Assembly (NCBI GenBank): GCA_005191425.1
Contig: SUPR01000074.1
Span: 1-17,153 of the forward strand
Source: Candidatus Helarchaeota ASGARD archaeon Hel_GB_B
Lineage (GTDB): Archaea > Asgardarchaeota > Lokiarchaeia > Helarchaeales > HEL-GB-B
Direction of reading: 5' to 3'
DNA: 17,153 bases
The notes under the pieces were generated by a model. The model worked only from the letters and a program-made list of their open reading frames with translations. It was not told the origin of the DNA and did not search any database. A program made the translations under genes and the position numbers. Of the stretch, positions 3,001-17,153 are shown piece by piece. Position 1 is the stretch's first letter; the number at the start of each line of letters is the position of its first letter.

Positions 3001-6000
3001 GAAATTTGAATTGAATTAATCCCTAATTTAAGTATATTATCATTTGTATCTACTTCAATATAGTATCTACCAGGTTCGATAGTCTGCATATTTAATACGC
3101 GATAGATATTAATTGAAGGTAAATAAAATATAATATTCAATGTACTGTTATCTATTCCTAAATTAGTATCAAGATCTTTATAATAAACAGAAATGTTTAC
3201 TTTTTCTCCATAAATTGTGATAGGAGGACTTTCATATGTCAATTCAGTATTTCGAGCCCTGACCCTAATTGTAACATTTATTGATGCTGGTGCATAATAG
3301 GGGATTCCAGTATAATTGGCATAAATCGTGAAAATGTAATTCCCAATATTAGCTAATTTTGAGGTATTAAATTTAATCATATATCCATTAGTTATTTCAA
3401 TTATCCAAGCATACCCATTTGAACTCCAGAGAGTATTATTCAGGTCATAAATTTCAATTTGTACGTTATAAGATTGATTATTAATATTTTTATTTCCTTG
3501 AATATCAATATATGAGATATTTAAAGTTGCATTTAAACCAAATCCGACTGTTTCTGCTGGTATATAGGTAATTTCCGTATCACGTGTATTAACAACAATC
3601 TCGATCACCGTTGATTTATTATTGTAATACGGCTTTCCAGACCAATTTACATAAATTAAAAACCTAAAAGTACCAATATCACCAATTTTGGTTGTATTGA
3701 TAATAATATTATAATAACCAGACCCAACCTCATTTATCCAACAAGTTTTTGCGAGGGGGCCAAACCAAATATAGGTGGAATTGTATAAATAAACATTTAT
3801 TTTAACATTAGAGCCCCAAGAATTCGTGGAATTTGAAATTCCTAAACTATTATTATCTAAATCTCGATATAAAATTTTGATTGTACTATTAAGCCCAAAA
3901 ACAACAGAATCAGGTGGATAACCAATTAACTCGGTAGCCCTTGACCTTGTTTTTATATTAACAATTGTAGATTGATTTGAATAATAGGGCTCTCCAGTCC
4001 AATTAACTGTAATCTTGATAGGAAATGATCCATAACTATTCCAAACAGAAGTATCAACTTCAATCCACATCTTCCCTAATTCAACGGGGTCAAAATGCCA
4101 ATCCCAATAACTTGAAGATAAATTACAATCAAATTCAATATTTGACCCATTTATAGAAACTCCATGGTACGAATCAATATATTTTACCCAGAAAGATACA
4201 TTGTCATTATATGGTGTAGTACTTGGAGGAGAATACAATAATTGGGAGTCAACTGCTCTAACTGAGAGAGTTACATAATTTGTTCTATCTGAAAAACCAG
4301 GGGCTGTAATATTTACTTCTAATATATAAGTACCAATTGTTTTTGCACTTGTATTTATAAACACATCATATGTCCCATCTAAATTATCAATAAAATAATA
4401 ATAATTTGTAGAATTTCGAGTCCAATTTATATTAATGTCTACATCTGAAATATAATTTCCTTCTTGATCAGTATAAGTTATTTTAAAACTTGTTTCCTCA
4501 CCCCAGACTTGTTGTGCGGGATTTGTTACTATTAATGCAGATTCTCTAGGTATTAATTTAATCGAAATATTTATAGATTGAAATTCATAATGCGTTCTAT
4601 TCGCCCAAATAGTTAAGTTATAGGTCAAATCCATATTAAAATTAGTAGTATTTATCCTTATTTTCCAGGTTGGATTTGAATCGGGTCCTATTTGCAACAG
4701 TTCAAGATTGTTAATAAGAGTCTTATTTGAGTCGTAAGTAAAAATAGTAATATTCAAATAAGGAGCAGAATCATTTCCTACATTAATTCCCCTTTCCCGG
4801 TCTATATAATATAGCGAAATGTTATATACACCAATAGGAATAGTTGCACTTGGAGATTCAGGAGATGACAAGATAGTATAAGTCCCCCTAATAGTAAGGT
4901 TCACATTCGATAAAGTATCTGGGACATAATTTGATTTATTTACATCAATTCTAAAATTATAGGTCAGTTCATACATATAGTCCATAACAATTTCAATTAA
5001 ATAACTACCATCACCTAAATCGGTGTAACTCCAATTATTATGATATGTAAAGGAGCTTACAGAAGGACTAATTAATGTTAGGTTAATAGTAGCCCCAGTT
5101 ATTCCTCTACTATGGTCTAAATCATAATAAGTTATTGTAAAAGTAGCATTTTCAGTACTACTCCAAGCTACCATTCCAGGTGGGTCATAACTTAATAATG
5201 TTGTAATTTGCTGTATAGTAATCGTAATTGTAATAGACTTATTTTGATAATGAGGCTCGATATTTGCCCATGAAAAATTTATTACTACTGAATATATTCC
5301 ATAAGATGGAATTGAACTCGTATTTATTATTAAAATATATTTATTTGAAAGATTCTCTACCCAAAATTCAGGTATCATTGCTAGAGAAATAATCTGGCAC
5401 GAAACATGTAAATTACCTGAATTATTATTTATAAAAGGCGTGGAGGAAATATCTATATCTTCATAATAGAGGCTTATGGATAAATTATCAGAATAAGGAA
5501 CAGCTTCAGGAGTATCATATAAGATTTGAGTTCTTCGTTCCCGTATAACAAACTGAGTAGTAATACTCTGATTTTGGAATCGACCTTGATATATCCAACT
5601 TACATTTATTTGAATTGAATATGTAGAAAGACTTGGTAAAACTGAGCTATTAAATTCTATTAGATATCTACCAGGAGTTCCGGGTTCTGAAATTATATAA
5701 ATAGGCTGAGTAGGTATTGCTGGACTAAAAATAAAACAATGTATACGGACATTATTTGAAGAATTTGTTATTCCTTGATTGGTCGTATTATCTAGATCAA
5801 TATAATCTACATAAATTGAAACATTATTTAAAAATGGAGTTACTTCAGGAGTCTGACTTGTAAATGATGTTAAATGTTTACGTATAGTAATGATTGTGCT
5901 CGTAAAAGTAGTTTCATAACCAGGTTGGGCTATAGAAATATTTACAGACCTAGAACCAATTGACCAATTATAAGTAATAGCAGATACCGTGAATACTCCA

Positions 6001-7070
6001 GGTGAAATTTCATTTGCAGGTCTGCTTACTCCATCGATCTTTATTACCGGAGATCCTCCACCTATATAGCAATTTAAATCTAAATCTCTATAATAGACGG
6101 TTAATGTCGTGTTTTCTCCCCAAGGAGTTGGGTCCGGGACATCAGCAGTTAATGAAGTTTTATGGAACCTAATTTCAAATGGTACCAAGATTGATTGGTT
6201 ATAATATTTTGACTTGTAAATAGTTAAATTTGCTACATATTGACCACTAGAAAGTCCTGTTAAGTTTACTTCAATTGTATATTCACCGTTTCCAAGATTA
6301 TTATATTGATATTTTCTTCCTGAAGACTCATTAAAAGTCAAATCATAAATTGAATTAATAGGTTGACCATCTAAAGAACTAGAATTATCTTCTACGGAAT
6401 AATGGACAGTAAATGTTATATTTTGTTCCCATGGAACGGGAATAGGAGTTTCAGCAATAAAAATAGTTTTTATAGGTCTGATCGCTATTGGTACAAGAAT
6501 AGAACGATTGATATAATACAATTTTTCGGCTGTTATGTTGATCGTATAACTTCCAATATCCCAATTAGAAGTACCTAATTCAATATTGTATACCCCATTT
6601 CCGGCGTCTGTTACAGTATATGATGAAGTATTACACGAAATTTCTGCTCCACTAAGCCCTCCACCAGTTGAGTTTTTAAATGTGATAATTAAAGAAGTAT
6701 TTACACCCCATGGAATAGAAGAAATAGCTTCATAAGTTAATGTAGTATCATCTATTATAATTAACTTAAACATATCATTTTGATTTTTTGAGTCATAATA
6801 ATCACCTTGAGCCCAAACATCTAAATAATAAATCCCTAATTTCCCACTTGTATCAATATCTAAAGAATAAATACCACCACCATAATCGACCATTGAACCA
6901 TTCAAATCATTTCCATTAACCCAACTTTTAAGAGAATAAGTAACATTTGCACCATTTATCCCAGTCCCCAAATCACTATCTGTATATTTTACTTTTAATA
7001 TTGCAATATTTCCTGCAAATACCGTTAATTCGCCACTTGTTGGAGATTGCCTTGTCAATGTTGTCCTATG
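1..7070 (-). repeat. Protein-level tandem array: 22 complete Ig-like repeats plus the start of a 23rd
   Basis: The recurrent consensus is T.L.Y..P..(V/T)P(W/Y/F)G.N..I.I.Y.D.D...GI ... G.G.Y.I.I(N/D)T..L..G.Y.I.I ... (P)YY.N.S..I.I.IR. Examples: HKTSLTADVPDPTPWGEN, DSQLLYSPPSTTPYNDN, RSTDIDYNPPEVTPF. The count was made by eye. Confidence 0.85.
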
Positions 7071-9509
7071 AGTAATTGTAAAATTTGTACGTAATTCACC
7101 TGCTTCTAATGCTTTTATCCCAGTTGTACTATTATCCCAATGGACTACAACTAAATAATTACCATTTGTCGCGTTTGTTGTAGACAAATAAATATCCGAA
7201 AAAGTCACTGAACCGCTTACCACACTCCGCTCTTCAGTATACCATAAATCTCCAGATTGGTCATATATTGATAAATTTGCAGTCCTATCAACGGAATTTA
7301 ATAAATCTGCTTTAACCCGGACATATTGATTAATGTAATAATTTGTCTGCGGATTATTTAAATTATTTAATGTTTGGACACTTGTAATATAATTTGGAGA
7401 TACACATGTAAAGTTAAAATAACCATACTCTGCAACACTTGTAGGTACTTCTATATAACCATCATTTAAATTACCTCCTAATACATCATCAGTTATATTT
7501 GAGGGCGGTGAATCGGGGTTAAAGACAGATTTTAATTGCCAGTCTTTAGGAATTGTAATATTAAATTTATAGCCTTGAATATCAGTCTGTGGGCTGGGAA
7601 GGTCAGGTGGAGTTGCAAAACAATAAAAATTCCAAACTGGATTTCCTAAATGGTCTGTATAAAAATGGGTACCTAATTCGGTTGTACCATAAGTATGATA
7701 AGTATTTCTTTTTGAAAAACACTCAATAGTATTTTCAACTTTTAATGATACAGGTTTTTGGTCTAAATTATTATAAAATGGAGTTGAATTTACAAAAATT
7801 GTAGTATTTAAAATTCTAGGTTGATTTCCAGCAACCCAATAATTTGAAGGTGTAATTGTGTAGGATCCTATACCCCAATTTGTTGGGTCATCTTGAATTT
7901 TATAAACCGGATATATTACTATATCGTCAAAACTTGAATTACTTACTCCATTATATTCGGCAGAAAGGCCGAAAATCCCACTTGAATATCTAGTGGGATC
8001 AGTATCAATAATATTAATATAAAGAGTACCATTTAAATAAACTCGAAAATGGTTATCAATCACGATAACCTCAATATCATACCATCTGTTGGGAACTATA
8101 GTGGTCTGAGGTACAGTCTTGTGGATAGAATCACCAGGATTCCATTGCTTAGCGTCAAGTCCCCCTTCTATCCTTAATAAATGAATACCATTATAGTTGG
8201 GGTTTGACCTAGCATCAATTCGGACAAAATAAGTATCTGAAACACTTGTTCCTCTAATCATTAATTCAGCTAAAGCATTAGAATCTTCAGCTCTCATTCT
8301 TGCCTTAATTACTGCATTCGTAATAGTCACACCATTCGCTATCGTATTTACTCTTAAACCAGAATGTATACTCCTATAAAATTTATTTCCTCCAAACTGT
8401 TGGACTAACCAAGTACCACTTTGGACAGCCCATCCATTTGCTGGATTTCCTGCAGTATCACTTTCAAAATTATCGTTTAGATTAATTTGATCCCCCATTA
8501 TCATACTAGCTTCTACCTGACTTGGCTTTGGAATTGTCGTAATAAAAAGATACACTTTATCAAAATATGCCTTATGTTTTGGCGCAAAATTTGTACCTGA
8601 TTGTGGAGATATAAATTCAATTCCAATTTTAAAATTAACTTTCTTAGGTATATCTCCAAATGTACTTGGATTTATATATACGACAGCAGATTGCCAAGTA
8701 TTATCAGGAATATTAAAAAAACTTATTGTTTTTACCGGTGTATCGTCAATATAAGCTACTACTGCTACACTCTCTTTTGATGTGTATGTCCCATCGACAT
8801 ATTTATAATAATCAAAATATAATTGGGCACTTACAATTTCTCCTCTGTCTAAATTAATAGGATGTACCCACCGACTCGCGGTACCTTCATATACATAATT
8901 ATAATTATTTCCAGTAGTATAATTATTATCAACATAAATCTCAGTTTCTAATTCAGGATTCGGTCTGGAAACATCAAAATCAGTCAAATTTGTCTTTATC
9001 TCCATATATGCAGTCCCACTGAGACCACTATTCATATGCATTCTAAATTCATCAGTCCACCCAATAGGATAATTCCGAGTTTCAGTTGGATATTGAGTAC
9101 CATTGCCTAAAAAGTCTATTGAACCCCATCCATGATAATGTATATTCTCATTTCTGTTAGCGGTCCTATCGGTCCAATTATAATTCGTTAACCAACATTT
9201 ATTTTCCATCAAATTATATACTTTTGTCGTTAATTTTTCTGCTTCCCAATTGGCAGGGATCTGAAGCGAAGAGGTCCCATTATTTTTCGATGATAAACTT
9301 AATGTCCCAGTTGAGTTACTTGTGCTCCCATATTCTGTAAAATTAAGCGATTTGCCATAATTACTGTAATTCGATATAGCATCTGTAGACATTGGTGATT
9401 TTGATGAATTATAATTAATTAATGGATAATCATTAATATATATTAAACCAATAATTCCAAATAGGATAAAAATTGAAAATATTATTGAGAATAATTTGAA
9501 TTTCTTCAT
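1..9509 (-). CDS. Giant secreted/cell-surface glycoprotein A, 3'-truncated by the window (>3169 aa): signal peptide, N-terminal jelly-roll domains, >=22 tandem ~100-110 aa Ig-like beta-sandwich repeats
   Basis: ATG at 9509 is preceded by GAGTGAG. It starts MKKFKLFSIIFSIFILFGIIGLIYIND. I translated 9509 to ~6660 line by line and spot-checked many lines down to base 1 (last residues RKVYTDYSILIGNESTLVY); all are open in the same frame. Its absence from the stop-terminated ORF track also fits a frame with no in-window stop. It is rich in N/T/S/Y/I/W with very many N-x-S/T sequons. Confidence 0.95.
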   Translation of the reverse strand, partial: MKKFKLFSIIFSIFILFGIIGLIYINDYPLINYNSSKSPMSTDAISNYSNYGKSLNFTEYGSTSNSTGTLSLSSKNNGTSSLQIPANWEAEKLTTKVYNLMENKCWLTNYNWTDRTANRNENIHYHGWGSIDFLGNGTQYPTETRNYPIGWTDEFRMHMNSGLSGTAYMEIKTNLTDFDVSRPNPELETEIYVDNNYTTGNNYNYVYEGTASRWVHPINLDRGEIVSAQLYFDYYKYVDGTYTSKESVAVVAYIDDTPVKTISFFNIPDNTWQSAVVYINPSTFGDIPKKVNFKIGIEFISPQSGTNFAPKHKAYFDKVYLFITTIPKPSQVEASMIMGDQINLNDNFESDTAGNPANGWAVQSGTWLVQQFGGNKFYRSIHSGLRVNTIANGVTITNAVIKARMRAEDSNALAELMIRGTSVSDTYFVRIDARSNPNYNGIHLLRIEGGLDAKQWNPGDSIHKTVPQTTIVPNRWYDIEVIVIDNHFRVYLNGTLYINIIDTDPTRYSSGIFGLSAEYNGVSNSSFDDIVIYPVYKIQDDPTNWGIGSYTITPSNYWVAGNQPRILNTTIFVNSTPFYNNLDQKPVSLKVENTIECFSKRNTYHTYGTTELGTHFYTDHLGNPVWNFYCFATPPDLPSPQTDIQGYKFNITIPKDWQLKSVFNPDSPPSNITDDVLGGNLNDGYIEVPTSVAEYGYFNFTCVSPNYITSVQTLNNLNNPQTNYYINQYVRVKADLLNSVDRTANLSIYDQSGDLWYTEERSVVSGSVTFSDIYLSTTNATNGNYLVVVHWDNSTTGIKALEAGELRTNFTITHRTTLTRQSPTSGELTVFAGNIAILKVKYTDSDLGTGINGANVTYSLKSWVNGNDLNGSMVDYGGGIYSLDIDTSGKLGIYYLDVWAQGDYYDSKNQNDMFKLIIIDDTTLTYEAISSIPWGVNTSLIITFKNSTGGGLSGAEISCNTSSYTVTDAGNGVYNIELGTSNWDIGSYTINITAEKLYYINRSILVPIAIRPIKTIFIAETPIPVPWEQNITFTVHYSVEDNSSSLDGQPINSIYDLTFNESSGRKYQYNNLGNGEYTIEVNLTGLSSGQYVANLTIYKSKYYNQSILVPFEIRFHKTSLTADVPDPTPWGENTTLTVYYRDLDLNCYIGGGSPVIKIDGVSRPANEISPGVFTVSAITYNWSIGSRSVNISIAQPGYETTFTSTIITIRKHLTSFTSQTPEVTPFLNNVSIYVDYIDLDNTTNQGITNSSNNVRIHCFIFSPAIPTQPIYIISEPGTPGRYLIEFNSSVLPSLSTYSIQINVSWIYQGRFQNQSITTQFVIRERRTQILYDTPEAVPYSDNLSISLYYEDIDISSTPFINNNSGNLHVSCQIISLAMIPEFWVENLSNKYILIINTSSIPSYGIYSVVINFSWANIEPHYQNKSITITITIQQITTLLSYDPPGMVAWSSTENATFTITYYDLDHSRGITGATINLTLISPSVSSFTYHNNWSYTDLGDGSYLIEIVMDYMYELTYNFRIDVNKSNYVPDTLSNVNLTIRGTYTILSSPESPSATIPIGVYNISLYYIDRERGINVGNDSAPYLNITIFTYDSNKTLINNLELLQIGPDSNPTWKIRINTTNFNMDLTYNLTIWANRTHYEFQSINISIKLIPRESALIVTNPAQQVWGEETSFKITYTDQEGNYISDVDININWTRNSTNYYYFIDNLDGTYDVFINTSAKTIGTYILEVNITAPGFSDRTNYVTLSVRAVDSQLLYSPPSTTPYNDNVSFWVKYIDSYHGVSINGSNIEFDCNLSSSYWDWHFDPVELGKMWIEVDTSVWNSYGSFPIKITVNWTGEPYYSNQSTIVNIKTRSRATELIGYPPDSVVFGLNSTIKILYRDLDNNSLGISNSTNSWGSNVKINVYLYNSTYIWFGPLAKTCWINEVGSGYYNIIINTTKIGDIGTFRFLIYVNWSGKPYYNNKSTVIEIVVNTRDTEITYIPAETVGFGLNATLNISYIDIQGNKNINNQSYNVQIEIYDLNNTLWSSNGYAWIIEITNGYMIKFNTSKLANIGNYIFTIYANYTGIPYYAPASINVTIRVRARNTELTYESPPITIYGEKVNISVYYKDLDTNLGIDNSTLNIIFYLPSINIYRVLNMQTIEPGRYYIEVDTNDNILKLGINSIQISVYSKGAPFYVNRTINISLSVRKIETTLNVGDYPKMVPWNSNLTIIFTYNDSDHNDIGILISQNNISCGWAYGYTITIISTGKFKITFNTSVQEQSWTTWVFVNKTYYREKNVSITFTIRKVYTDYYTNTSFVSNWAYGYSFTSEIEYRDSDNNVAIQGNIQITGDAPWVSGNYSVRYDTNASKWYVTFDTAFTEENVIYRINVTLYQDHYMNQSFQIMVTIQYPPSALLIIDTDPGTIVPFGDELIITVTHNDTEQYKYINGSTIWLEPQSIWPASNYTVTEIGFGVYEIRINTTWEYRPEGSYRLTIKAHAEHYENTSTATTITIRKIATDLTILSAPSFVNFGLNASISIQLNDTDHNVGLNNSIFNVYWKDSSNTLHEWSGPDVNGSYSVIKNSSTGLYTLLINTSTDLGLGSFQLYINASLDSSWGNWQKHYEMASTLYILQITTRSTSLTAINTPEGDIPWGDTFNITVAYNDTVKLIGISTSNVSVSGWGNNYIWQEISLGVYEIKINSTTILPTQFNTLLPVYIHLNKTFYDPQTIIVYVVIRKIRTFFGYNPPSVTPYNNSLVVQTQYKDIDHNQYILNNSGKVFVICNISNYGASYTINNETNGRYFINIDTSTLPGPGIYAIMINISWSGSPYYQNKTIELTINVRNITTLLVINPVNPVPWNTNLTITINYVISDFESIHDNDPIENAYITISSLYTPFTVYEDGNGVYRIEINASSLQNVGTHSLWIFAKKSTLECANETFSFQVRPRSTDIDYNPPEVTPFEFYANITIQYRDLDRNNIGISNNSGNIRISALVNSQVFNYIYIDNLSNGVYIIHINTWYLDDIGTYDFTIWVNWTYNSQYSNSSIIIPVIIEARETQFSYDTPQTFAYGSIAEITLYYLDMDKNGQGISNISSYGGQKIRGRAIIDGNMSETSYTFSELAWGKFSLRINTLAIKMNQIGYHFVQVNFSWIGKPFFSNMSLTIQFNIRKVYTDYSILIGNESTLVY
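7914..8474 (-). other. Concanavalin A-like/LamG/DUF1080-type beta-sandwich (lectin-like) domain in protein A, aa ~346-532
   Basis: The segment DNFESDTAGNPANGWAVQSGTWLV...NAVIKARMR...YFVRID...RWYDIEVIV.DNHFRVYLNG.LYINIID.DPTRYSSGIFGL.AEYNGVSNSSFDDIVI has the DxFE start, WY.I.V...Y.NG core and G..GL...FDDI end typical of this fold. Confidence 0.75.
8528..8885 (-). other. Possible galactose-binding-like/CBM jelly-roll domain in protein A, aa ~209-328
   Basis: It shows alternating beta-strand patterns, a W...V motif (NTWQSAVVYIN) and a terminal YFDKVYL strand resembling the YFDDV.L end of CBM-like jelly rolls. Confidence 0.45.
9432..9509 (-). other. Signal peptide / N-terminal hydrophobic anchor of giant protein A
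   Basis: Basic n-region MKKFK is followed by the hydrophobic stretch LFSIIFSIFILFGIIGLIYI. No obvious A-x-A cleavage site follows immediately, so it may be an uncleaved anchor. Confidence 0.85.
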
Positions 9510-9741: not shown

Positions 9742-10824
9742 TTATCGATATGACATATTAAATGTATCTCGAAGTATGTTCAAATGCTCAATTAATATTG
9801 GATCTGCTTTTGTCCCGTCATTATAACTTTCTAATATTAGATTAATCAAATATTCTGGGAATACTAACTTTATAGCAATATCAGTCCTTAGAAAATATAA
9901 TTCTTGTCCTTTTTTATTTCTTAAAACATTAATAACTCGATTATCCCATAATAATTTTAGTGTATTGTCTAAATTTTCAGTTTCAGACCTCATTAATGCC
10001 ATATCGTCCATTGTTAGATAATTTTCTCTTAATTTTTTGATTATTTTATAAGCGTCCATATCAATTATTATGTTTAAAATTGTTTCTTGGTCCTCAGGTG
10101 TTGGTGAATACCCTTCAAAAAATGCCTTTACATCAGTTAAATAATCATTGTCTAAATTACCACCAAATTGATTTAATTTAGCTTTTTTTACTATATTTAT
10201 TGGTGGGACTCTCGTGACAAATATATCTCCAACTAAAAATACAACAGAACTTGGCATCTCTTTTAATGTCGATTCTACTATTAGTCCCATCTTGATCATA
10301 GAATGTAATATTCCATCTATATCTATATTCTCTCTTGCAAGTCTGTCTTTTAACCAAGTTAAAAGCTCACTTTTCGTGGCGGAACCATCTTCGATCAGTC
10401 TGTCAATTATCATCTTTTTAATGGGGTCTAAAAATGTAAGCGCTAAATGTTGGTCTCGGTCCATTTTTGGATAATTAACTATGTTTTTGAAAATTTCCGG
10501 CAACATTTCTACATATCGTCTGTATTCTAGATTGTTCATTATAATTCGAACTGAATCTGTTAAAACATCTTCATATGCTTCCGGCTCTTCATCTATACTT
10601 AATAATAAACACATATAATAGTTCGTTTCTAACCCCGTAAAATAACTCGCGATATTTAAATCACCAATAGTTATTGTAAGAAACCCTTTCTCACCTTCAA
10701 ATGCGTGCGTTGTATATATCTGCATCGTGGCTTTGTCATCTATATCTATATCTTCTGGATATGCAGATAATCTTTTCATTCCCGCTTTATCATCAAATCT
10801 AAATATTATTAAACCGTGAACCAT
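9742..10824 (-). CDS. Longin/uDENN-like domain + two winged-helix repeats protein (NPRL2/DENN-superfamily-like architecture), 360 aa
   Basis: The N-terminus GLIIFRFDDKAGMKRLSAYP matches the h-h-h-x-F-D-x-x-x-G-x-x-h-x-x-x-(Y)P start of uDENN/longin domains, and the beta-beta-alpha-beta-beta-beta-alpha pattern runs to aa ~120. Two internally similar wHTH-like units follow (aa ~133-208 and ~255-323; FLVGDIFVTRVPP vs FLRTDIAIKLVFP). There is a GGTGA RBS. Confidence 0.8.
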   Translation of the reverse strand: MVHGLIIFRFDDKAGMKRLSAYPEDIDIDDKATMQIYTTHAFEGEKGFLTITIGDLNIASYFTGLETNYYMCLLLSIDEEPEAYEDVLTDSVRIIMNNLEYRRYVEMLPEIFKNIVNYPKMDRDQHLALTFLDPIKKMIIDRLIEDGSATKSELLTWLKDRLARENIDIDGILHSMIKMGLIVESTLKEMPSSVVFLVGDIFVTRVPPINIVKKAKLNQFGGNLDNDYLTDVKAFFEGYSPTPEDQETILNIIIDMDAYKIIKKLRENYLTMDDMALMRSETENLDNTLKLLWDNRVINVLRNKKGQELYFLRTDIAIKLVFPEYLINLILESYNDGTKADPILIEHLNILRDTFNMSYR

Positions 10825-10829
10825 TCATT

Positions 10830-10834
10830 TCACC
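10830..10834 (-). promoter_or_regulatory. Shine-Dalgarno GGTGA for the longin-wHTH gene
   Basis: The minus strand reads TCGGTGAAATGAATG, with 5 nt between GGTGA and the ATG at 10824. Confidence 0.75.
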
Positions 10835-11703
10835 GACACATTTAATCATTACATATATTTAATAAATTATTTCTAAAATATTAAATATATATTATTTGTT
10901 ATTCTATTTCATTTATATGTCTTATTTTTGGATTTTATTGATTCGAAATTTATTTTTTATAATTCATCATTTTTATTTTAATTAACTACTTTAAAAAAAT
11001 AATACAAATGTACCTTATCAAAAACTAGATAAAAACTGTTAATTTATCCAGACATAAAAATAAAATATAATTCAAATTTTGTTGCTTATTTAAGTAATTT
11101 TTTATTATTTTAATAAAAAATAGATGTTTTTTAATGTTACAAAAGCTTTTTTACTTACTTATTGGAGAATCTTCCCAATTTTATATTATTTTCAGAATAT
11201 CTTCGTTTTAAAAGTATTTTTTATAGTGAATGGACGAGATTGTCGTAGTTAAACATTAATTTACAAACGGGACGATAGAAACTTTTTAAATTTAACAAAA
11301 ATACGAATTTAACTATAATTAACCGGCAGAAAAAACATAAATTACAAAATTTGTTTAGTCGATTGGATTTAAATTAGTAAAATAACAATAATTATTGAAA
11401 AAAAATTAAATGTATATAATTTGTGATGAAAATTCGAGCGTGTAGCAAATTATAAAGTTAAATTTGTTATTAGTAGAATTACAGATTCAATTAAAAATGT
11501 TGAGTTAAAAAAGTCATAATAAATTTTGAGAGCGAAATAACAAAAATTGAAAGGTTTTTTAATTATTTTTTTAATTATTAAATTATATTTACTAATTAAA
11601 TTAATTTGAAAAATTTTAATTGAATGCATGTTATCTTTAAATCCTAAATTAGAATATTTTTTCTAATTTGTAATTAAAAAAATCGATAGAAAAACATAAT
11701 ATT

Positions 11704-11708
11704 GGTGA
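11704..11708 (+). promoter_or_regulatory. Shine-Dalgarno GGTGA for the ESCRT-III-CHAT gene
   Basis: The sequence reads ATTGGTGAAATCGGATG, with 6 nt to the ATG at 11715. This supports the start and the inclusion of the ESCRT-III-like N-terminus. Confidence 0.75.
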
Positions 11709-11714
11709 AATCGG

Positions 11715-13847
11715 ATGGCTATAAAATTCAACAAAAATAGGGAAAATTTAGAATATTTGAAGACGGAAATAGAGAAAATTATTAGGAAACTTAAGCTTAA
11801 AATAAGAAATTATGAAGAGAAAATTATAATATTAAAGAATAGAGTAAAAGATCTTTATAAATCAGACAAAGAACAAATGATTAGGAAAGTATTATTGCAA
11901 ATAATTCTTTATAGGAAGAAAATATTTAAGTACCAAGGGTTAATTAGTAATTTAGAAAAGAATTTAGAAGAAATTAAGTCGCTATTTGTTAGTGAAATGA
12001 TAAATAATGTAAACGTTGATTATTTTAATAAAATCAATTATGCACTAAAAGAGTCGACTGAAAAATCTTCAGAAGAAGAAATTGATGCTAAAATATTTAG
12101 TGAAATTGAAAATCAAGTCGATATCGTAGAAGACTATGAAAATGATATAGATATATTAAAAAAGGAAATTTTAATGGAAATGTCGTCAGGAGCAGAGCCA
12201 CCAGATGATTTAGAAGAGAGAAAGAAGAAATTAAGAAAAGAAATTGGTGATATTAAAGAAGAGCTTGGATTTGAATATGAATTACCAAGTGCTGGTGGCA
12301 TACCAATGCCTCAATCGCCTCAAATAGAGGGCGCTAAAGGACAACCAAAAAAATCAGATAAAACAGAAGGTGAAAAAAGGAGACCAAAAACTATCGAACG
12401 ATATGGTGATATAATTGCAGATAATGAGATGGAACTAAATAAAGAGACCAAAATTATGGTATCAATAAAAAAGGAAGCAAAATCAGTATTGGGAGTAAAA
12501 GTGCAGATGTCTATTACAGTTCCAGAGGAAGAGAAAAAATTACCAGAAATCGAAATATTTATAATGGCACCAGATTTTGAGATCCCAGAGCCTCGAAAAA
12601 AATTAGTCATCCCATTGGACCGAGATTCCGAAATACTTGAATTTAAAATAACCCCTAAAGAAGTTGGTAAAAAATATATATTCGTAGAGTTTTATCAAGA
12701 AGGAAAAATGATTAATAGAGCAATTCTGGAAGTAATAGTTAAAAAAGAAACCAATTCTATTAATAAAATTGAAAAATCATTTAATATCACCATGTTTGAA
12801 AATGTGGAAATTGATGCAACTCTAAGAATTATCCGTTACGAAAATAAATTTATTTTTAGTCTTTTTACAAAACATGGAGGCACTATTATAGACCCAAGGG
12901 CATCGTTCGGGACTATGGAAATTAAAAAGAAATATATCAAAAATTTAAACGAATTAATGAGAGATATGGCGTTGGACTTTAAAAACCCAAAAAAAGCCAT
13001 GAATATAATAAAAAAACTTGGAAAACTCGTTTATCAATTAATTCCCGGACCAATGCGCGAAGCCATTAAAAAAATAGACCCAAAATACTTAATTTTTGAA
13101 ACGGGCGATTTATTTGTACCTTTTGAACTTGCTCACGATGGTGAAGATTTTATTTGCTTAAAATATTGCATAGGAAAAAGAATACTTGACGAAAATAAAG
13201 ATTTTAGTGCACCTCCAATTTGCTTTGGCACCTCAGAATTTGATTTCATGATGGTCGAGTCTAATCCTAATAAAGATTTGGAATTAAAAGATAGAGAATA
13301 CATTGAAAAAATTATTAAAAATTACGACATCAATTTTAAAACACTTAAAGACAAAAATGCCACTAAAAAGTTAATATTAGACCTGATAAAATCAACACCA
13401 ATAGAAATTATTCATTTTGCAGGTCATGGTATGTTTGATGAAAAGAATCCAGATAATTCGGGGATCCTTTTAGAGGACGGAATTTTGACGGCACATGAAA
13501 TAAGGAATATGAAAATAAAGGGTTTCCCATTAATTTTTGCAAACGCTTGTGAATCAGCATCTATTACAAAGGTCAATAAAATAAAAGGAGTAGGAGGGGT
13601 TGCAAGGTCATTTCTTGGGTCTGGAGCTATTGGATTTATAGGGCCATTGTGGGAAATTACTGACGATTTAGCTGCTGAATTTGCAATGAAATTCTATGAG
13701 AAATTATTAATAGACCGTTTAACCGTAGGTGATGCTATTAAAGAGGTAAAAATTGAGTTAAAGTCCAAATATTCAGATATTTTATGGGCTACCTTTAATT
13801 ATTACGGTGATCCTACGTTAAAATTATGTCCAAAAAGTCTTGCTTAA
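11715..13847 (+). CDS. ESCRT-III (Vps2/24/46-like) domain - Ig-like beta-sandwich - CHAT cysteine protease fusion, 710 aa
   Basis: The C-terminal CHAT domain is clear: IIHFAGHG (H571), FANACES (C612), GFIGPLWEITD, WATFNYYGDP, and upstream DLFVPFELAHDG..LKYCIGKR. aa ~1-195 form a basic helical hairpin followed by acidic helices with ESCRT-III-like motifs. aa ~225-342 are all-beta. The CHAT call is high confidence and the ESCRT-III call moderate to high. Confidence 0.9.
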   Translation: MAIKFNKNRENLEYLKTEIEKIIRKLKLKIRNYEEKIIILKNRVKDLYKSDKEQMIRKVLLQIILYRKKIFKYQGLISNLEKNLEEIKSLFVSEMINNVNVDYFNKINYALKESTEKSSEEEIDAKIFSEIENQVDIVEDYENDIDILKKEILMEMSSGAEPPDDLEERKKKLRKEIGDIKEELGFEYELPSAGGIPMPQSPQIEGAKGQPKKSDKTEGEKRRPKTIERYGDIIADNEMELNKETKIMVSIKKEAKSVLGVKVQMSITVPEEEKKLPEIEIFIMAPDFEIPEPRKKLVIPLDRDSEILEFKITPKEVGKKYIFVEFYQEGKMINRAILEVIVKKETNSINKIEKSFNITMFENVEIDATLRIIRYENKFIFSLFTKHGGTIIDPRASFGTMEIKKKYIKNLNELMRDMALDFKNPKKAMNIIKKLGKLVYQLIPGPMREAIKKIDPKYLIFETGDLFVPFELAHDGEDFICLKYCIGKRILDENKDFSAPPICFGTSEFDFMMVESNPNKDLELKDREYIEKIIKNYDINFKTLKDKNATKKLILDLIKSTPIEIIHFAGHGMFDEKNPDNSGILLEDGILTAHEIRNMKIKGFPLIFANACESASITKVNKIKGVGGVARSFLGSGAIGFIGPLWEITDDLAAEFAMKFYEKLLIDRLTVGDAIKEVKIELKSKYSDILWATFNYYGDPTLKLCPKSLA

Positions 13848-14087: not shown

Positions 14088-17000
14088 TTATTTAAGAGAT
14101 TTTAATATATCTTTCTGTTCTTTTAATGATAGATTCTTCAGGTCATTTATTAAATCTTGTTTCTCTTCCTCAGAGAGTCCAGGTATTTTGTCAAGTTCTT
14201 CTTTTATTTGTTCTATGGACAATTTTTTCTCTTTTTCAATTTTAGCTTTTTTAGGTTTCTTAGGTTTAGGAGGTATTTCTTCAGAGGGTGGTTGGGTCTT
14301 AGCAGAAGGTCTGAGGGTTTTAGGTATTGGGATACCCGCTAATTGTAGTAATCGGATTCGGTCATCTACGGGGATTACCATTGCCTCAAGATATAAATCG
14401 GCGTCTTTAGGTGTCATTTGTCTGATATTGTTTAGGACTTCTTCAGCTTGGTTATAATCAATTTCGCTTCCTTTTATCTCTCCAAGAGCTTTAGCAAATT
14501 CCAGAATTTCTACTTTTTCTTTTTTGATTACACCAATTATAGTCAATAATCGTTTGGAAGCTTCTGGTGGTACGTTCATTTCTGCCAATACTTGTTCACC
14601 TTCCAGTTCATTTAGTCCTTTTAGTCTAGTAATAAGAGATTCAGCTTCAGGAGTGGTAATTCTTGTCCTGAGAATCGCACTTAATTCACTTGCAAATGCC
14701 ACAATTTCTGGCTCTACTAATTTAGGTGGTACAATACCTAGGGCTGCCCAATTAGACTCGAAAATTTCTCTGAATAATTCCTCCCTATTCTTCACTACAG
14801 GAACAACAGCTTCACCTTTGCCTTTTTTAATTAATTTTGTACCTTTTATTATTTCTTTTATTTGATATGGTTTGAGCCACCATTTTACTCTTCTATAGAC
14901 GACTACAGTTGCAACACCAGCAATTGCGACCATTGCTGCAATAAATAATGGATGCTCCCAAATTGGTTTAATCGACATTGTAGATTGATAATTGTAGTTA
15001 TTAGTAGTAGCATAATTACTGCTTGAAGGCACAAATTCTATCACAAGATAATATAATTGGTTCACTTTCAATTGACTTGAATCTAAAGTAATCGTAGCAA
15101 CTCCACCAACTACATTTGCGCTCCCAATCTTAAAGTGTTCGCCAGTTGAGCTGTTCAAATAATAATTGATTACGCCATCAAGGGACTCTCCAAATTCATT
15201 GATTATTCTAATTTGGATCTGAACTGAGAAAAATTGATAGATATTAAATGACGCTCTAATTGGTGCTATTATATTCGTTTTCGCAGGTAAAATTTCTACA
15301 GAAATGTTTAGGAATGCTGTTTCATAATGCGTTAAATTCGATACTAATTGAAGGTGATAAATACCTACATTTACCGCCTTTAAGCAGGTTATATTTATAG
15401 CATATCGTCCTCGACTTACATCGCCAGATAGATTGAAAATACCCGGCCAATTTAATAAGGTATAACTTGCAAGTCTTAGATTACCTAAATTTGAATGAGT
15501 ATAATCATAATTACTATAAGTTTCATTATCTTGATAATAAAATTTAATTAACCCAGAATGTCGGTACCTCATTGCCATTGAATTTTCGGATATGTTGTAA
15601 ATATCATCACCATCTGAACTCTCCCAGTCATAAAAAACTATACTTGTTTTTATTAGTCTGACTTGGAATGTAAAGTTCACTGAAATTGTTTCATAGTTCA
15701 ATTTAATAAAAGTTAAGTTTAGCGTATGATTTCCAATGTCTAAGAGGCTTGTGTCTATACGTACTTGATAAATTCCAATATCGCCACTTGGAAATATATT
15801 AATTTGGGGTTGGTTGCTCTGATTTACTCCAATTATATTCCTATAAATATTGCTAAGGAGAGCAATAATTCCAATACCACCTCTATCATAGTCAGTATAA
15901 TTGACAGTAAAAATACACTGATCACCCCATGGAGTAGGCACTATGTAGTCATCTACCATTGTTAAATTAACTCTTACAGGTCTAATATAGAATGAAACAT
16001 TCAGTTCAGATGTTAGGTATATCCTGTTATATTCTGTTGCATTTATATGTATATGAAGTCTGAACTTACCTGTAAATTGTCTGTAAATTTGAGATGTATC
16101 AATTCTAATTCTAAATAGACCAATTAAACTATCATTATCAGGAGTAGTTTCTAAATAGGTATTATTAAGTTCCCAATATGCTGTACTGAACCAAGTAGAA
16201 TAATTTGTATTTCCCTCTTCATATAATCTTACTTGTAGGTCAGTTGTCTTTGATACACCAGTAATTATTCCTGGATTAGCAGCTGAACTTTTCAAATCCC
16301 ACCAATAGAACCACACATCAACGATTTGTCCCCAATAATATTCTGGCTCTATACTTGGAAAATGATATAAAGTGCCAGATACTATTGATGATGCTACTGT
16401 ATAATTTGCAGTAATATTTGTTGGGTGCGTCTTTATCAATAAGTCTATCAAGAAACTTACACTACTGTTTTTAATATGATCTCCAAATACTTCAAAAATA
16501 ATCTGGAAATTGTCCAATTCATCGACTTCACTTCTATTAAATCCAAAGGTAAATCTATAATATCCCAGTGATTGTTGTGATGTATCTACAGTGATATTAC
16601 CCCATTGCCAGATGTGTCCATAATATGTAATATTATATGTAGGCATACTTATCGCAAATCTTATATTGTTATATTGCCCAGTGCTCCCTCCTGTTGCATG
16701 TGAATTATTTTCTAACCATTCATTATGTGCCGTATCTTCAACTCGAACCGTAATATTAAAACTACTTGCTTCTTCCGCATAAGTCACCCTATCATATTGT
16801 CCCCTTGTAGATTCTGTTGGGATATTTATTACTGTGACATATTTGTTCAAATATGATGAAATCGTGAAAATAGCCTTTCCACTTATATGGATTTTCAGCG
16901 TGATTTCTTGATATGGTAGGATTGGGAGAATTGTAGTGTTCATTGTAAAGTTCCATACACCATCACCTAAACCAAATACTTCATAATAAGTAAAATTGCC

Positions 17001-17153
17001 ATTTTGCTTGATATATTCACTTGACCAGCCATTTAATAATGTGGTAGTAGATACTGTTATATTGACATCGGCACCTGCAATACCAGGTTCTCCTTCTGCT
17101 TCAGAATTATTGAAGCTGAATAATAAGGTAATATTATCGCCCCAACATACATC
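14088..17153 (-). CDS. Giant single-pass surface glycoprotein B, 5'-truncated (>=1021 aa visible): Ig-like repeats, C-terminal TM helix, 268-aa cytoplasmic tail
   Basis: The frame is open upstream of the track's ATG at 16943 all the way to 17153 (DVCWGDNITLLFSFNNSEAEGEPGIAGADVNITV...GLGDGVWNFTMNTT), so 16943 is an internal Met. It carries the same repeat consensus as protein A (e.g. PTPWGDQCIFTVNYTDYDRGGIGI...GIYQVRIDTSLLDIG...NYETISVNFTFQVR). Confidence 0.93.
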   Translation of the reverse strand, partial: DVCWGDNITLLFSFNNSEAEGEPGIAGADVNITVSTTTLLNGWSSEYIKQNGNFTYYEVFGLGDGVWNFTMNTTILPILPYQEITLKIHISGKAIFTISSYLNKYVTVINIPTESTRGQYDRVTYAEEASSFNITVRVEDTAHNEWLENNSHATGGSTGQYNNIRFAISMPTYNITYYGHIWQWGNITVDTSQQSLGYYRFTFGFNRSEVDELDNFQIIFEVFGDHIKNSSVSFLIDLLIKTHPTNITANYTVASSIVSGTLYHFPSIEPEYYWGQIVDVWFYWWDLKSSAANPGIITGVSKTTDLQVRLYEEGNTNYSTWFSTAYWELNNTYLETTPDNDSLIGLFRIRIDTSQIYRQFTGKFRLHIHINATEYNRIYLTSELNVSFYIRPVRVNLTMVDDYIVPTPWGDQCIFTVNYTDYDRGGIGIIALLSNIYRNIIGVNQSNQPQINIFPSGDIGIYQVRIDTSLLDIGNHTLNLTFIKLNYETISVNFTFQVRLIKTSIVFYDWESSDGDDIYNISENSMAMRYRHSGLIKFYYQDNETYSNYDYTHSNLGNLRLASYTLLNWPGIFNLSGDVSRGRYAINITCLKAVNVGIYHLQLVSNLTHYETAFLNISVEILPAKTNIIAPIRASFNIYQFFSVQIQIRIINEFGESLDGVINYYLNSSTGEHFKIGSANVVGGVATITLDSSQLKVNQLYYLVIEFVPSSSNYATTNNYNYQSTMSIKPIWEHPLFIAAMVAIAGVATVVVYRRVKWWLKPYQIKEIIKGTKLIKKGKGEAVVPVVKNREELFREIFESNWAALGIVPPKLVEPEIVAFASELSAILRTRITTPEAESLITRLKGLNELEGEQVLAEMNVPPEASKRLLTIIGVIKKEKVEILEFAKALGEIKGSEIDYNQAEEVLNNIRQMTPKDADLYLEAMVIPVDDRIRLLQLAGIPIPKTLRPSAKTQPPSEEIPPKPKKPKKAKIEKEKKLSIEQIKEELDKIPGLSEEEKQDLINDLKNLSLKEQKDILKSLK
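14895..14948 (-). other. Transmembrane helix of protein B
   Basis: LFIAAMVAIAGVATVVVY is followed by RRVKWWLK, consistent with the positive-inside rule and a type I topology. Confidence 0.9.

What the first reader, a model, noticed from the sequence alone, without database searches (positions are those of the whole stretch)
11715..13847. ESCRT-III subunit fused to a caspase/separase-clan CHAT protease
Seen in sequence: aa 1-195 show ESCRT-III charge asymmetry (K/R-rich hairpin, then acidic helices) with matching motifs EEKII..K..VK.LYK.DK, YRKKI.KY.GL.SNLE, KIFSEIENQVDIVED and IKEELG...LPSAGG. Against human CHMP2A as I recall it (EKKIIADIKKMAKQG; KIMMEFERQAEIMD; VLDELG...LPSTGG) these align in order across alpha1-alpha5. 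The same ORF ends in a CHAT protease, with no stop or frameshift between. Established: Asgard archaea encode Vps2/24/46-like and Vps20/32/60-like ESCRT-III; clan CD proteases are often switched on by proximity on filaments; and fungal Rim13/PalB and calpain-7 are proteases recruited to ESCRT-III. Inference: this protein could co-polymerise into ESCRT-III filaments and trigger proteolysis at a membrane-remodelling site, for example in division, vesicle release, damage or infection. I do not recall this fusion being characterised.
Basis: partly seen in the sequence, partly recalled or inferred. Interest (0 to 1): 0.92.

Follow-up and report, generated by a model that had tools for sequence, protein, structure and literature searches.

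The report
ESCRT-III-like domain fused to CHAT protease
An Asgard archaeon from vent and marine sediment encodes one protein in which a diverged copy of a membrane-remodelling ESCRT-III subunit is joined to a caspase-like protease, an apparently undescribed pairing whose function is still only inferred.

Summary
Window 11715-13847 (+) is one 710-aa ORF.

**Architecture**
- aa 1-185: ESCRT-III-like helical domain
- aa 186-224: Pro/Gly/Lys linker
- aa 225-400: beta domain
- aa 401-710: CHAT protease with His571/Cys612 intact

**ESCRT-III call.** It rests on several tests.
- An HMM of Asgard ESCRT-IIIB, run over the whole genome, hits only ESCRT-IIIB, ESCRT-IIIA and this ORF (E 7e-6).
- hhalign gives 90% probability, collinear over the whole length. 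A relative's N-domain gives 97%. Shuffled and reversed controls fail.
- A profile of the N-domains finds CHMP3 first in the PDB.
- The Foldseek top 30 in Swiss-Prot are all ESCRT-III.
- Charge is +12 then -16.
- Pfam Snf7 stays below its cut-off, and pure geometry is non-specific.

**Junction.** It is real: two independent assemblies, a bridging contig from a further run, and six relatives share the layout.

**Family.** The beta+CHAT core occurs in 9 of 400 Asgard species genomes. Its N-termini are swapped (TPR-like or other), the N-domain evolves fast, and there are no conserved or ESCRT neighbours.

**Mechanism (inferred).** An ESCRT-III-type assembly module concentrates and activates the protease, more likely as a stress or defence effector than as core ESCRT machinery.

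I found no description of this fusion in the ESCRT surveys searched. Other notes of this scan cover the same stretch only.

The parts
11715..13847 (+). Whole ORF, 710 aa plus stop (P0001).
   Evidence: The identical protein is found in two independent ENA assemblies. A Logan contig of run X2 spans 12018-12735 across the domain junction.
11704..11708 (+). GGTGA, a ribosome-binding-site-like motif 6 nt upstream of the ATG.
   Evidence: Read directly from the sequence. This is inference only.
11715..12269 (+). ESCRT-III-like (B-type-like) domain, aa 1-185.
   Evidence: The ESCRT-IIIB HMM hits here at E 7.2e-6 genome-wide. hhalign gives probability 89.8%, full length. Pfam Snf7 covers aa 18-179 at E 5e-4, below its cut-off. 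The Foldseek top hits are all ESCRT-III.
11733..12050 (+). Basic alpha1-alpha2/3 helical hairpin, aa 7-49 and 53-112.
   Evidence: AF2 model with the 7-sequence alignment: block-mean pLDDT 81-92 over aa 11-90, falling to about 57-60 by aa 91-110. Net charge of aa 1-112 is +12. It aligns to the hairpin of Asgard ESCRT-IIIB with the tips in register.
12051..12269 (+). Acidic C-terminal half of the ESCRT-III-like domain, aa 113-185. It includes the terminal amphipathic helix at aa 163-184, which aligns to the C-terminal helix of ESCRT-IIIB.
   Evidence: Net charge of aa 113-195 is -16. The hhalign alignment ends at template position 215 of 216. Model confidence is low here, pLDDT below 60.
12270..12386 (+). 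Pro/Gly/Lys-rich flexible linker, aa 186-224.
   Evidence: Variable-length Pro-rich stretch in all family members. Predicted as coil.
12387..12914 (+). Conserved beta-rich domain, aa 225-400. It starts at the invariant R229/D232 block.
   Evidence: Family alignment A1. The Atlas model of aa 222-430 matches the N-terminal parts of bacterial CHAT proteins at TM 0.63-0.73.
13017..13811 (+). CHAT (clan CD, caspase/separase-like) protease domain, Pfam match aa 435-699.
   Evidence: PF12770 at E 1.8e-30 and Peptidase_C25 at E 5e-13. PADLOC BovA at E 5.2e-10 on aa 528-696.
13425..13427 (+). Codon of the catalytic His571.
   Evidence: Invariant in the 20-sequence family alignment.
13548..13550 (+). 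Codon of the catalytic Cys612.
   Evidence: Conserved in at least 90% of family members; one relative has Tyr.

Best explanation
**Shown.** The gene encodes a modular protein. A complete but diverged copy of an Asgard ESCRT-IIIB-type subunit has a basic helical hairpin, an acidic C-terminal half and a terminal helix. A flexible Pro-rich linker ties its C-terminus to a beta-domain + CHAT protease module with an intact His/Cys dyad.

**Inferred.**
- The ESCRT-III-like domain acts as an assembly and targeting module. It would polymerise, on its own or on ESCRT-III-type polymers at a membrane.
- The C-terminal tail of an ESCRT-III subunit points away from the filament, so the tethered proteases would be displayed and crowded.
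- Clan CD proteases are typically switched on by such proximity.
- Fast evolution, patchy distribution, N-terminus swapping and resemblance to bacterial conflict-system CHAT modules make a stress-, damage- or virus-triggered effector more likely than a core division or sorting component.
- Substrates are unknown.

I put about 0.85-0.9 on the architecture and ESCRT-III ancestry, and about 0.45 on the mechanism.
For: **ESCRT-III ancestry**
- The Asgard ESCRT-IIIB HMM finds only IIIB, IIIA and this ORF in the genome (E 7.2e-6).
- hhalign is collinear over the full length: probability 89.8% for this protein and 97.4% (P 1.3e-11) for relative P0005. Shuffle and reversal controls are negative.
- The N-domain profile finds CHMP3 as its top four PDB hits (E 1.3e-4), followed, among a few unrelated weak hits, by Vipp1/PspA and Heimdall ESCRT-IIIB.
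- Foldseek: the PDB top hits are CHMP2A/3, CHMP1B, Vipp1, Loki CHMP4-7 and Asgard ESCRT-IIIB. The Swiss-Prot top 30 are all ESCRT-III.
- Charge asymmetry is present.
- In blind searches of related genomes, most of the best-scoring intact open frames (nine of about 218-232 aa) turned out to be, or have the size of, ESCRT-IIIB genes.

**Protease.** CHAT scores E 1.8e-30 and the dyad is conserved.

**Real fusion.**, and the same layout in P0004-P0008 and P0010.

**Effector-type module**
- The beta+CHAT core matches bacterial CHAT proteins. The beta domain alone also resembles domains of TIR- and TCAD9-bearing proteins, more weakly (TM 0.46-0.56).
- BovA is hit in PADLOC.
- Paralogues carry a TPR-like N-terminus.
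- The genome's other CHAT proteins carry Ras-like GTPase, Macro or TPR N-termini.
- The same-genus genome is 87% identical in ESCRT-IIIA but only 53% in the beta domain of this protein, and 16% in the N-domain.
Against: - There is no functional data of any kind.
- Pfam Snf7 is below its gathering score.
- Five of the seven N-domains are not individually recognisable as ESCRT-III. Constraint on the ESCRT-III function may therefore be weak.
- Pure geometric comparison ranks generic helical hairpins level with ESCRT-III, at Z about 10-11.6.
- The model is confident only for the hairpin.
- No neighbouring substrate or partner gene is conserved.
- The ESCRT locus lies on another contig.
- Proximity activation is established for caspases and some CHAT proteases, but it is assumed here.
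Confidence: 0.45

Rival explanations
1. Housekeeping ESCRT regulator. The protein is a true third ESCRT-III subunit. It co-polymerises with the canonical ESCRT-IIIB/IIIA filaments and cleaves ESCRT subunits or cargo there, to time disassembly, division or vesicle release.
For: A full-length ESCRT-IIIB-like copy is present, including the terminal helix and a Pro-containing segment where ESCRT-IIIB has its MIM2-like motif. The charge pattern is kept. The genome has the full partner set of IIIA, IIIB and Vps4. From general knowledge, proteases are recruited to ESCRT-III in eukaryotes (calpain-7, Rim13/PalB), and CdvB is removed by the proteasome in Sulfolobus.
Against: The core family was found in only 9 of 400 Asgard species genomes, whereas ESCRT-IIIA was found in 37 of the 41 related genomes searched. 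The N-domain is 16% identical between same-genus genomes, where ESCRT-IIIA is 87%. Paralogues replace the domain with a TPR-like unit. The gene is not linked to ESCRT genes.
Confidence: 0.2
2. Exapted spacer. The N-domain descends from ESCRT-IIIB but now serves only as a coiled-coil dimerisation or spacer element, or as a decaying remnant. It has no polymer or membrane role, and the protease is regulated in some other way.
For: Divergence is rapid, and detectable ESCRT-III similarity is lost in five of seven relatives. Unrelated helical N-termini occur in P0009 and the P0011-13 group on the same core. Model confidence is low beyond the hairpin.
Against: The basic-then-acidic charge split is kept in all seven members, though weakly in P0007 (+1/-4) and P0008 (+2/-14). 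The ~200-aa length is also kept across members, and the terminal amphipathic helix in most (P0008 and P0004 have Pro in that block). Retention of a whole ESCRT-III copy, rather than a fragment, suggests selection on its overall design.
Confidence: 0.2
3. Not homologous. The N-terminus is a generic charged helical hairpin that resembles ESCRT-III by convergence and composition.
For: Pfam Snf7 is below its cut-off. The HMM matches carry high composition bias. Geometry-only search gives many unrelated hairpins at equal Z. The Atlas structure hits include SMC and other coiled coils.
Against: Order-dependent signal is present: shuffled and reversed controls score 11 against 52. The alignment is full-length and collinear, ending at the template's last residue. 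The domain is the only extra hit of the ESCRT-IIIB HMM in the genome. The helical N-termini of P0009 and P0011-13 score nothing. All top Foldseek 3Di+AA hits are ESCRT-III.
Confidence: 0.1
4. Artefact. The ORF is a chimeric assembly or a miscalled fusion of two genes.
For: The genome is a metagenome-assembled draft of 182 contigs with 4.9% contamination.
Against: The protein is identical on contigs of two separate ENA assemblies. A contig from another sequencing run bridges 12018-12735. Six relatives from other samples share the same domain order.
Confidence: 0.02

Closest known systems
Asgard ESCRT-IIIB (Vps20/32/60-like; solved filaments PDB 9ftl and 9fn1)
   Same: Same length of about 200 aa, a basic alpha1-alpha2 hairpin and an acidic C-terminal half. 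A Pro-containing segment and a terminal amphipathic helix sit in the same order. hhalign probability is 90-97%. Foldseek and VIA hit 9ftl and 9fn1.
   Different: About 19% identity. Pfam Snf7 is below its cut-off. The domain evolves far faster than the canonical subunit. It is not in the ESCRT/Vps4 locus. It carries a 500-aa protease module on its C-terminus. Polymerisation and Vps4 binding are untested.
Prokaryotic CHAT proteases of conflict systems (Borvo BovA; TPR-CHAT/Csx29 of type III-E CRISPR 'Craspase'; bacterial beta-domain+CHAT proteins)
   Same: A CHAT domain with a His/Cys dyad. The preceding beta domain is as in bacterial CHAT proteins (TM 0.63-0.73). BovA is hit at E 5e-10. A variable N-terminal adaptor is present, TPR-like in the sister group.
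   Different: The N-terminal adaptor here is ESCRT-III-like, which I did not find described. No CRISPR, gasdermin or other partner gene lies nearby. A defence role is untested. The BovA match covers the CHAT part only.
Eukaryotic proteases recruited to ESCRT-III (calpain-7, Rim13/PalB; from general knowledge)
   Same: A cysteine protease brought to an ESCRT-III scaffold.
   Different: Those proteases are calpains that bind ESCRT-III non-covalently through MIT domains. Here a clan CD protease is covalently fused to an ESCRT-III-like domain. There is no homology between the proteases.
PspA/Vipp1 (bacterial branch of the ESCRT-III superfamily)
   Same: The same superfamily fold. Weak profile and Foldseek hits: E 0.06-0.08, Vipp1 at rank 3, and one relative hits PspA_IM30 at E 0.004.
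   Different: Scores are consistently lower than for the eukaryotic and Asgard ESCRT-III. A survey of PspA/Snf7 architectures reports few fusions and none to a protease (PMC11237479).

Membership tests
ESCRT-III / Snf7 (Pfam PF03357) | Sequence match to the family profile above the curated threshold. | tested here: not met
   Snf7 scores 20.1 bits, E 5e-4, on aa 18-179 against a gathering score of 27.3. Only 2 of 7 family N-domains give any Snf7 hit.
ESCRT-III / Snf7 | Remote homology to bona fide ESCRT-III by profile methods, with controls. | tested here: met
   The Asgard IIIB HMM hits this ORF at E 7.2e-6, the only extra hit in the genome. hhalign gives 89.8% for this protein and 97.4% for P0005, full length. 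Shuffles score 11.3 +/- 1.8 against 52. The PDB profile search finds CHMP3 first, E 1.3e-4.
ESCRT-III / Snf7 | Core fold: a long alpha1-alpha2 hairpin followed by shorter alpha3-alpha5 helices. | tested here: inconclusive
   The AF2 hairpin 7-49/53-112 has block-mean pLDDT 81-92 over aa 11-90, dropping near its end. Later helices (128-134, 142-155, 163-184) are below pLDDT 60. Foldseek 3Di+AA top hits are all ESCRT-III. Geometry alone ties with unrelated hairpins at Z 10-11.6.
ESCRT-III / Snf7 | Basic N-terminal half and acidic C-terminal half. | tested here: met
   +12 (pI 9.8) for aa 1-112 and -16 (pI 4.2) for aa 113-195. The same direction of split is seen in all seven relatives (weak in P0007 and P0008) and in canonical IIIB.
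ESCRT-III / Snf7 | C-terminal MIT-interacting motif that binds Vps4. | tested here: inconclusive
   The terminal helix aa 163-184 aligns to the last helix of ESCRT-IIIB. A Pro-containing segment lies where IIIB has its MIM2-like motif. No binding evidence was obtained.
ESCRT-III / Snf7 | Polymerisation and membrane binding or remodelling. | not testable with these tools
   This needs purified protein, liposomes and electron microscopy.
ESCRT-III / Snf7 | Genomic association with Vps4 and other ESCRT genes (usual in Asgard). | tested here: not met
   The canonical IIIA, IIIB and Vps4 genes lie on contig C128, and this gene on C156. No ESCRT genes lie beside the homologues examined.
CHAT (Pfam PF12770; clan CD cysteine proteases) | Profile match above the curated threshold. 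| tested here: met
   106.9 bits against a cut-off of 24, E 1.8e-30, covering profile positions 3-289 of 289.
CHAT (clan CD) | Catalytic His and Cys dyad. | tested here: met
   H571 is invariant. C612 is conserved in at least 90% of 20 family members.
CHAT (clan CD) | Proteolytic activity. | not testable with these tools
   This needs an enzyme assay with a C612A control.
Borvo defence system (BovA) | Full-length similarity to BovA and an anti-virus phenotype. | tested here: inconclusive
   The PADLOC BovA hit, E 5.2e-10, covers only the CHAT part (profile positions 512-680 of 711). The phenotype is not testable here.

The most novel reading that the evidence does not exclude
A caspase-like protease is a genuine subunit of Asgard ESCRT-III polymers. 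Membrane-remodelling filaments in the closest archaeal relatives of eukaryotes would then carry their own proteolytic activity. Filament assembly at a damaged, dividing or virus-budding membrane would directly trigger cleavage of ESCRT components, cargo or cell-death substrates. This would be a covalent, prokaryotic counterpart of the eukaryotic recruitment of proteases to ESCRT-III.
Probability: 0.2. Interest if true: 0.85.

Novelty: new variant of a known kind. Interest (0 to 1): 0.62.

Why it matters
ESCRT-III proteins are regarded as almost purely structural subunits with very few domain fusions. A published survey reports minimal architectural variation (PMC11237479). The large ESCRT diversity survey mentions no protease (PMC10936438).

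A full ESCRT-IIIB-like copy wired to a caspase/separase-clan protease suggests that Asgard archaea have used the filament-forming module as a platform for regulated proteolysis.

If it assembles as predicted, it gives a simple, testable model of proximity-activated proteolysis on a membrane-remodelling polymer. It would add to the link between Asgard 'eukaryotic signature' modules and conflict-system effectors. The same genome also has Ras-like-GTPase-CHAT and Macro-CHAT proteins.

If the domain proves to be only a decaying spacer, the finding is a curiosity of domain shuffling.

Tried and rejected
1. Single-sequence searches with aa 1-230 or 1-215 against 5.8 and 1.8 billion proteins found only the protein itself and one 92-aa fragment. 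Relatives were reached only through the C-terminal module.
2. The N-domain profile was searched against proteins of stand-alone length (110-350 aa). Nothing scored E <= 0.01, so no free-standing close relative is known.
3. The full-length single-sequence AF2 model was too poor to use (pLDDT 39).
4. Complex prediction of the Vps4 MIT domain with aa 150-200 gave no answer (score 0.05, below the mark). This is neither for nor against binding.
5. I tested whether the TPR-like N-terminus of sister proteins P0014-P0023 is a MIT domain. TPR families and designed TPR proteins score far better. MIT appears only weakly: Pfam E 0.008-0.1, and a Vps4-type MIT chain at E 0.004. I rejected MIT in favour of a generic TPR unit.
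6. Conserved neighbours: the 360-aa upstream ORF has no Pfam or PADLOC hit. It is unrelated to the ORFs upstream of homologue P0008. Contexts of P0005, P0006 and P0008 differ from the window.
7. RNA evidence: no RNA holder is listed among the public runs.
8. Rfam and promoter/terminator scans of the window and the AT-rich upstream spacer found nothing above background.
9. An apparent 1169-aa ESCRT-IIIA 'fusion' in genome G004 is a scaffold gap of Ns, not a fusion.
10. The geometry-only structure search does not separate ESCRT-III from other helical hairpins.
11. An A-type assignment (CHMP2A-like) is not favoured over B-type by hhalign. Eukaryotic A-type proteins nevertheless top the HMM and Foldseek lists, so the subtype is not fully settled.
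Full report
**Observation.** The window holds a single uninterrupted ORF at 11715-13847 on the + strand, 710 aa. Pfam places a CHAT domain at aa 435-699 (E 1.8e-30, 106.9 bits against a cut-off of 24) with an overlapping Peptidase_C25 match. It also gives a sub-threshold Snf7 match at aa 18-179 (E 5e-4, 20.1 bits against 27.3). His571 and Cys612 sit in the expected HFAGHG and NACES contexts.

**Organism.**
- The assembly is a 3.5-Mb draft in 182 contigs, 93.7% complete.
- It has the canonical Asgard ESCRT set on another contig: an A-type and a B-type ESCRT-III gene about 4 kb apart, and Vps4.
- The same-genus genome carries a protein nearly identical to a database entry labelled Candidatus Helarchaeota. 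I therefore infer a Helarchaeales-like Asgard archaeon.
- The gene's DNA is found in hydrothermal-vent and marine-sediment metagenomes from several studies.

**Is the junction real?**
- The identical 710-aa protein is encoded on contigs from two separate ENA assemblies, 72 kb and 17 kb.
- A 718-nt contig from a further public run covers 12018-12735 with one difference. This spans the end of the helical domain, the linker and the start of the beta domain.
- Six relatives from other samples have the same domain order.

A misassembly is very unlikely.

**Is the N-terminus ESCRT-III? Sequence evidence.** Single-sequence searches are nearly blind here. Only the protein itself and one fragment were found among billions of proteins. 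BLASTP against the genome's own ESCRT-III proteins is not significant, although it is collinear with the B-type. phmmer against the PDB gives a weak hit to a Loki Vps20/32/60-like chain (E 0.02). Profile evidence is much stronger.
1. In a blind six-frame search of 60 related genomes with aa 1-230, nine of the best-scoring intact open frames were about 218-232 aa. Those inspected proved to be ESCRT-IIIB genes (best per-genome E 5.4e-5).
2. An HMM built from seven Asgard ESCRT-IIIB proteins, run over the whole genome in six frames, returns exactly three places. These are ESCRT-IIIB (E 1e-78), ESCRT-IIIA (E 4e-10, 40 bits) and this ORF (E 7.2e-6, 26 bits).
3. hhalign of aa 1-200 against that profile gives 89.8% probability (P 1.8e-6) over 173 columns. 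Query 9-185 lies on template 12-215 of 216, so a whole ESCRT-IIIB copy is matched and it ends at the template's last helix.
4. The N-domain of relative P0005 gives 97.4% (P 1.3e-11), also over the full length.
5. The seven-sequence N-domain alignment scores 52 against the IIIB profile. 100 column shuffles gave 11.3 +/- 1.8 (maximum 15.6) and the reversed alignment gave 10.7. The signal therefore depends on order, not composition.
6. The same alignment, as an HMM against all PDB sequences, finds CHMP3 as its four best hits (E 1.3e-4 to 8e-3). Vipp1/PspA and Heimdall ESCRT-IIIB follow, among a few unrelated weak hits.
7. The helical N-termini of other family members (P0009, P0011-13) serve as natural negative controls and score nothing.

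**Is the N-terminus ESCRT-III? Structure evidence.**
- An AF2 model of aa 1-200 with the seven-sequence alignment has a hairpin at 7-49/53-112. It is confident over most of its length (block-mean pLDDT 81-92 over aa 11-90, about 57-60 at aa 91-110). Three short helices after it are of low confidence.
- Foldseek (3Di+AA) puts CHMP2A-CHMP3, CHMP1B, Vipp1, Loki CHMP4-7 and Asgard ESCRT-IIIB on top in the PDB (E from 1.4e-3).
- All 30 best Swiss-Prot models are ESCRT-III proteins, aligned over residues 1-200 (E from 2e-4).
- Caveat: a geometry-only search ties ESCRT-III chains (Z 11.2) with unrelated helical hairpins (Z 10-11.6). The hairpin shape by itself proves nothing.
- Charge is +12 for aa 1-112 and -16 for aa 113-195, as in the canonical B-type subunit.

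I put the ESCRT-III ancestry at about 0.85-0.9.

**Which subtype?** hhalign favours B-type (score 45-52) over A-type (about 25). The blind genome hits were B-type where inspected. Eukaryotic A-type proteins (CHMP3, Did4, CHMP2A) nevertheless lead the HMM and Foldseek lists. B-type is the better reading but is not settled. The segment before it (EMSSGAEPP; 'E-I/V-P' in most relatives) lies where Asgard Vps20/32/60 proteins have their proline-rich MIM2-like motif (PMC7240154).

**The family**
- Searching with aa 215-710 found about 20 full-length relatives in Loki-, Hel- and Hod-labelled MAGs.
- All share a conserved core that starts at aa ~225: a beta domain plus CHAT, with H571 invariant and C612 nearly so. 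A Pro-rich linker of variable length precedes it.
- The N-termini fall into groups. Six relatives (P0004-8, P0010) align with this protein's helical domain. P0014-23 have a single TPR-like unit. P0009 and P0011-13 have other helical or acidic regions with no ESCRT-III signal.
- One genome (G006) carries both a close-type and a TPR-type copy, so these are paralogous lineages.
- Among 400 Asgard species genomes the core was found in 9. These comprise the window's own genome, its genus-mate (G001), all three genomes of a neighbouring family in the same order, and four of six genomes in one distant family.
- Divergence is striking. N-domains are 16-31% identical. Whole proteins of the same relatives are 47-55% identical, and the aa 215-710 part is 60-67%.
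- The same-genus genome is 87% identical in ESCRT-IIIA, but 53% in this protein's beta domain and 16% in the N-domain.

**Context**
- The neighbours here are a divergent 360-aa ORF without family hits, a giant surface-type protein and a second very large ORF. The giant protein is over 3169 aa in the window and 4272 aa on the longer contig, with ConA-like and Ig-like domains.
- Homologues sit among unrelated genes.
- No ESCRT, CRISPR, gasdermin or other obvious partner gene is adjacent.
- The Atlas model of aa 222-430 matches the N-terminal part of bacterial CHAT proteins (TM 0.63-0.73). It matches beta domains of TIR- and TCAD9-bearing proteins more weakly (TM 0.46-0.56).
- PADLOC's only hit is BovA of the Borvo system, on the CHAT part.
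- The genome has further CHAT proteins with Ras-like GTPase, Macro or TPR N-termini.

**Mechanism.** The architecture is shown. The rest is inference.
- In ESCRT-III polymers the C-terminal tail projects away from the filament (established knowledge). A protease on a flexible linker at that end should therefore be compatible with assembly and would be displayed and concentrated.
- Clan CD proteases are commonly activated by induced proximity (established for caspases; assumed here).
- I therefore favour an assembly-activated protease (0.45).
- Fast evolution, patchy distribution, swapped N-termini and conflict-system relatives point to a stress, damage or defence effector rather than a core ESCRT part.
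- Rivals: a housekeeping regulator co-polymerising with canonical filaments (0.2), an exapted spacer (0.2), convergence (0.1) and artefact (0.02).

**Novelty.**
- Full-text searches combining CHAT with ESCRT-III, Snf7 or Asgard returned no paper that held both CHAT and an ESCRT or Asgard term.
- The ESCRT diversity survey (PMC10936438) contains no mention of CHAT, caspase, protease or peptidase.
- The PspA/Snf7 architecture survey (PMC11237479) reports minimal variation for Snf7 and no protease fusion.
- Within what I could search, the architecture is undescribed. Both parts belong to known families, so I class it as a new variant of a known kind.
- Other notes of this scan on the same stretch reached compatible readings.

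Noticed in passing
window 3-9509 (-): A giant ORF, over 3169 aa in the window and 4272 aa on the longer contig L028. It has a ConA-like/3-keto-disaccharide-hydrolase domain (E 1.6e-7) and weak filamin/invasin-type Ig repeats. It is probably a huge surface or adhesin-like protein.
   Followed up: partly
window 14088-17153 (-): A second very large ORF, convergent with the CHAT gene. It is at least 1021 aa in the window and 1636 aa on L028, with no Pfam or PADLOC hit.
   Followed up: partly
window 9742-10824 (-): A 360-aa ORF divergent from the CHAT gene with no Pfam or PADLOC hit. It is not related to the ORFs upstream of homologue P0008. Another note of the scan calls it longin-like, which I did not test.
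   Followed up: partly
window 10825-11714: An 890-bp intergenic spacer of about 20% G+C. It has no Rfam hit and no excess of promoter-like sites. A 59-aa ORF is called here in other assemblies.
   Followed up: partly
L007:691-2388:+, L008:1495-3093:-, L009:133-2349:+, L012:184-2058:-: The same genome encodes other CHAT proteases with different N-terminal modules: a Ras/Rab-like GTPase (E 6e-32), a Macro domain (E 5e-18) and TPR arrays. The CHAT module appears to be a shuffled effector in this archaeon.
   Followed up: partly
P0014-P0023 N-termini (alignment A4): The sister group of the family carries a single ~60-aa TPR-like three-helix unit in place of the ESCRT-III-like domain. It has a faint MIT resemblance (Pfam E 0.008-0.1), but TPR scores far better.
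   Followed up: yes
L002:2348-3496:- and L001:3-1109:-: A HerA/DUF87-type P-loop ATPase gene lies between the canonical ESCRT-IIIA and ESCRT-IIIB genes of this genome. This was seen in translation only. Another note of the scan reports it too.
   Followed up: no
L046 (G004:C123): An apparent 1169-aa open frame containing ESCRT-IIIA is caused by a run of N (a scaffold gap) read through as X. It is not a fusion.
   Followed up: yes
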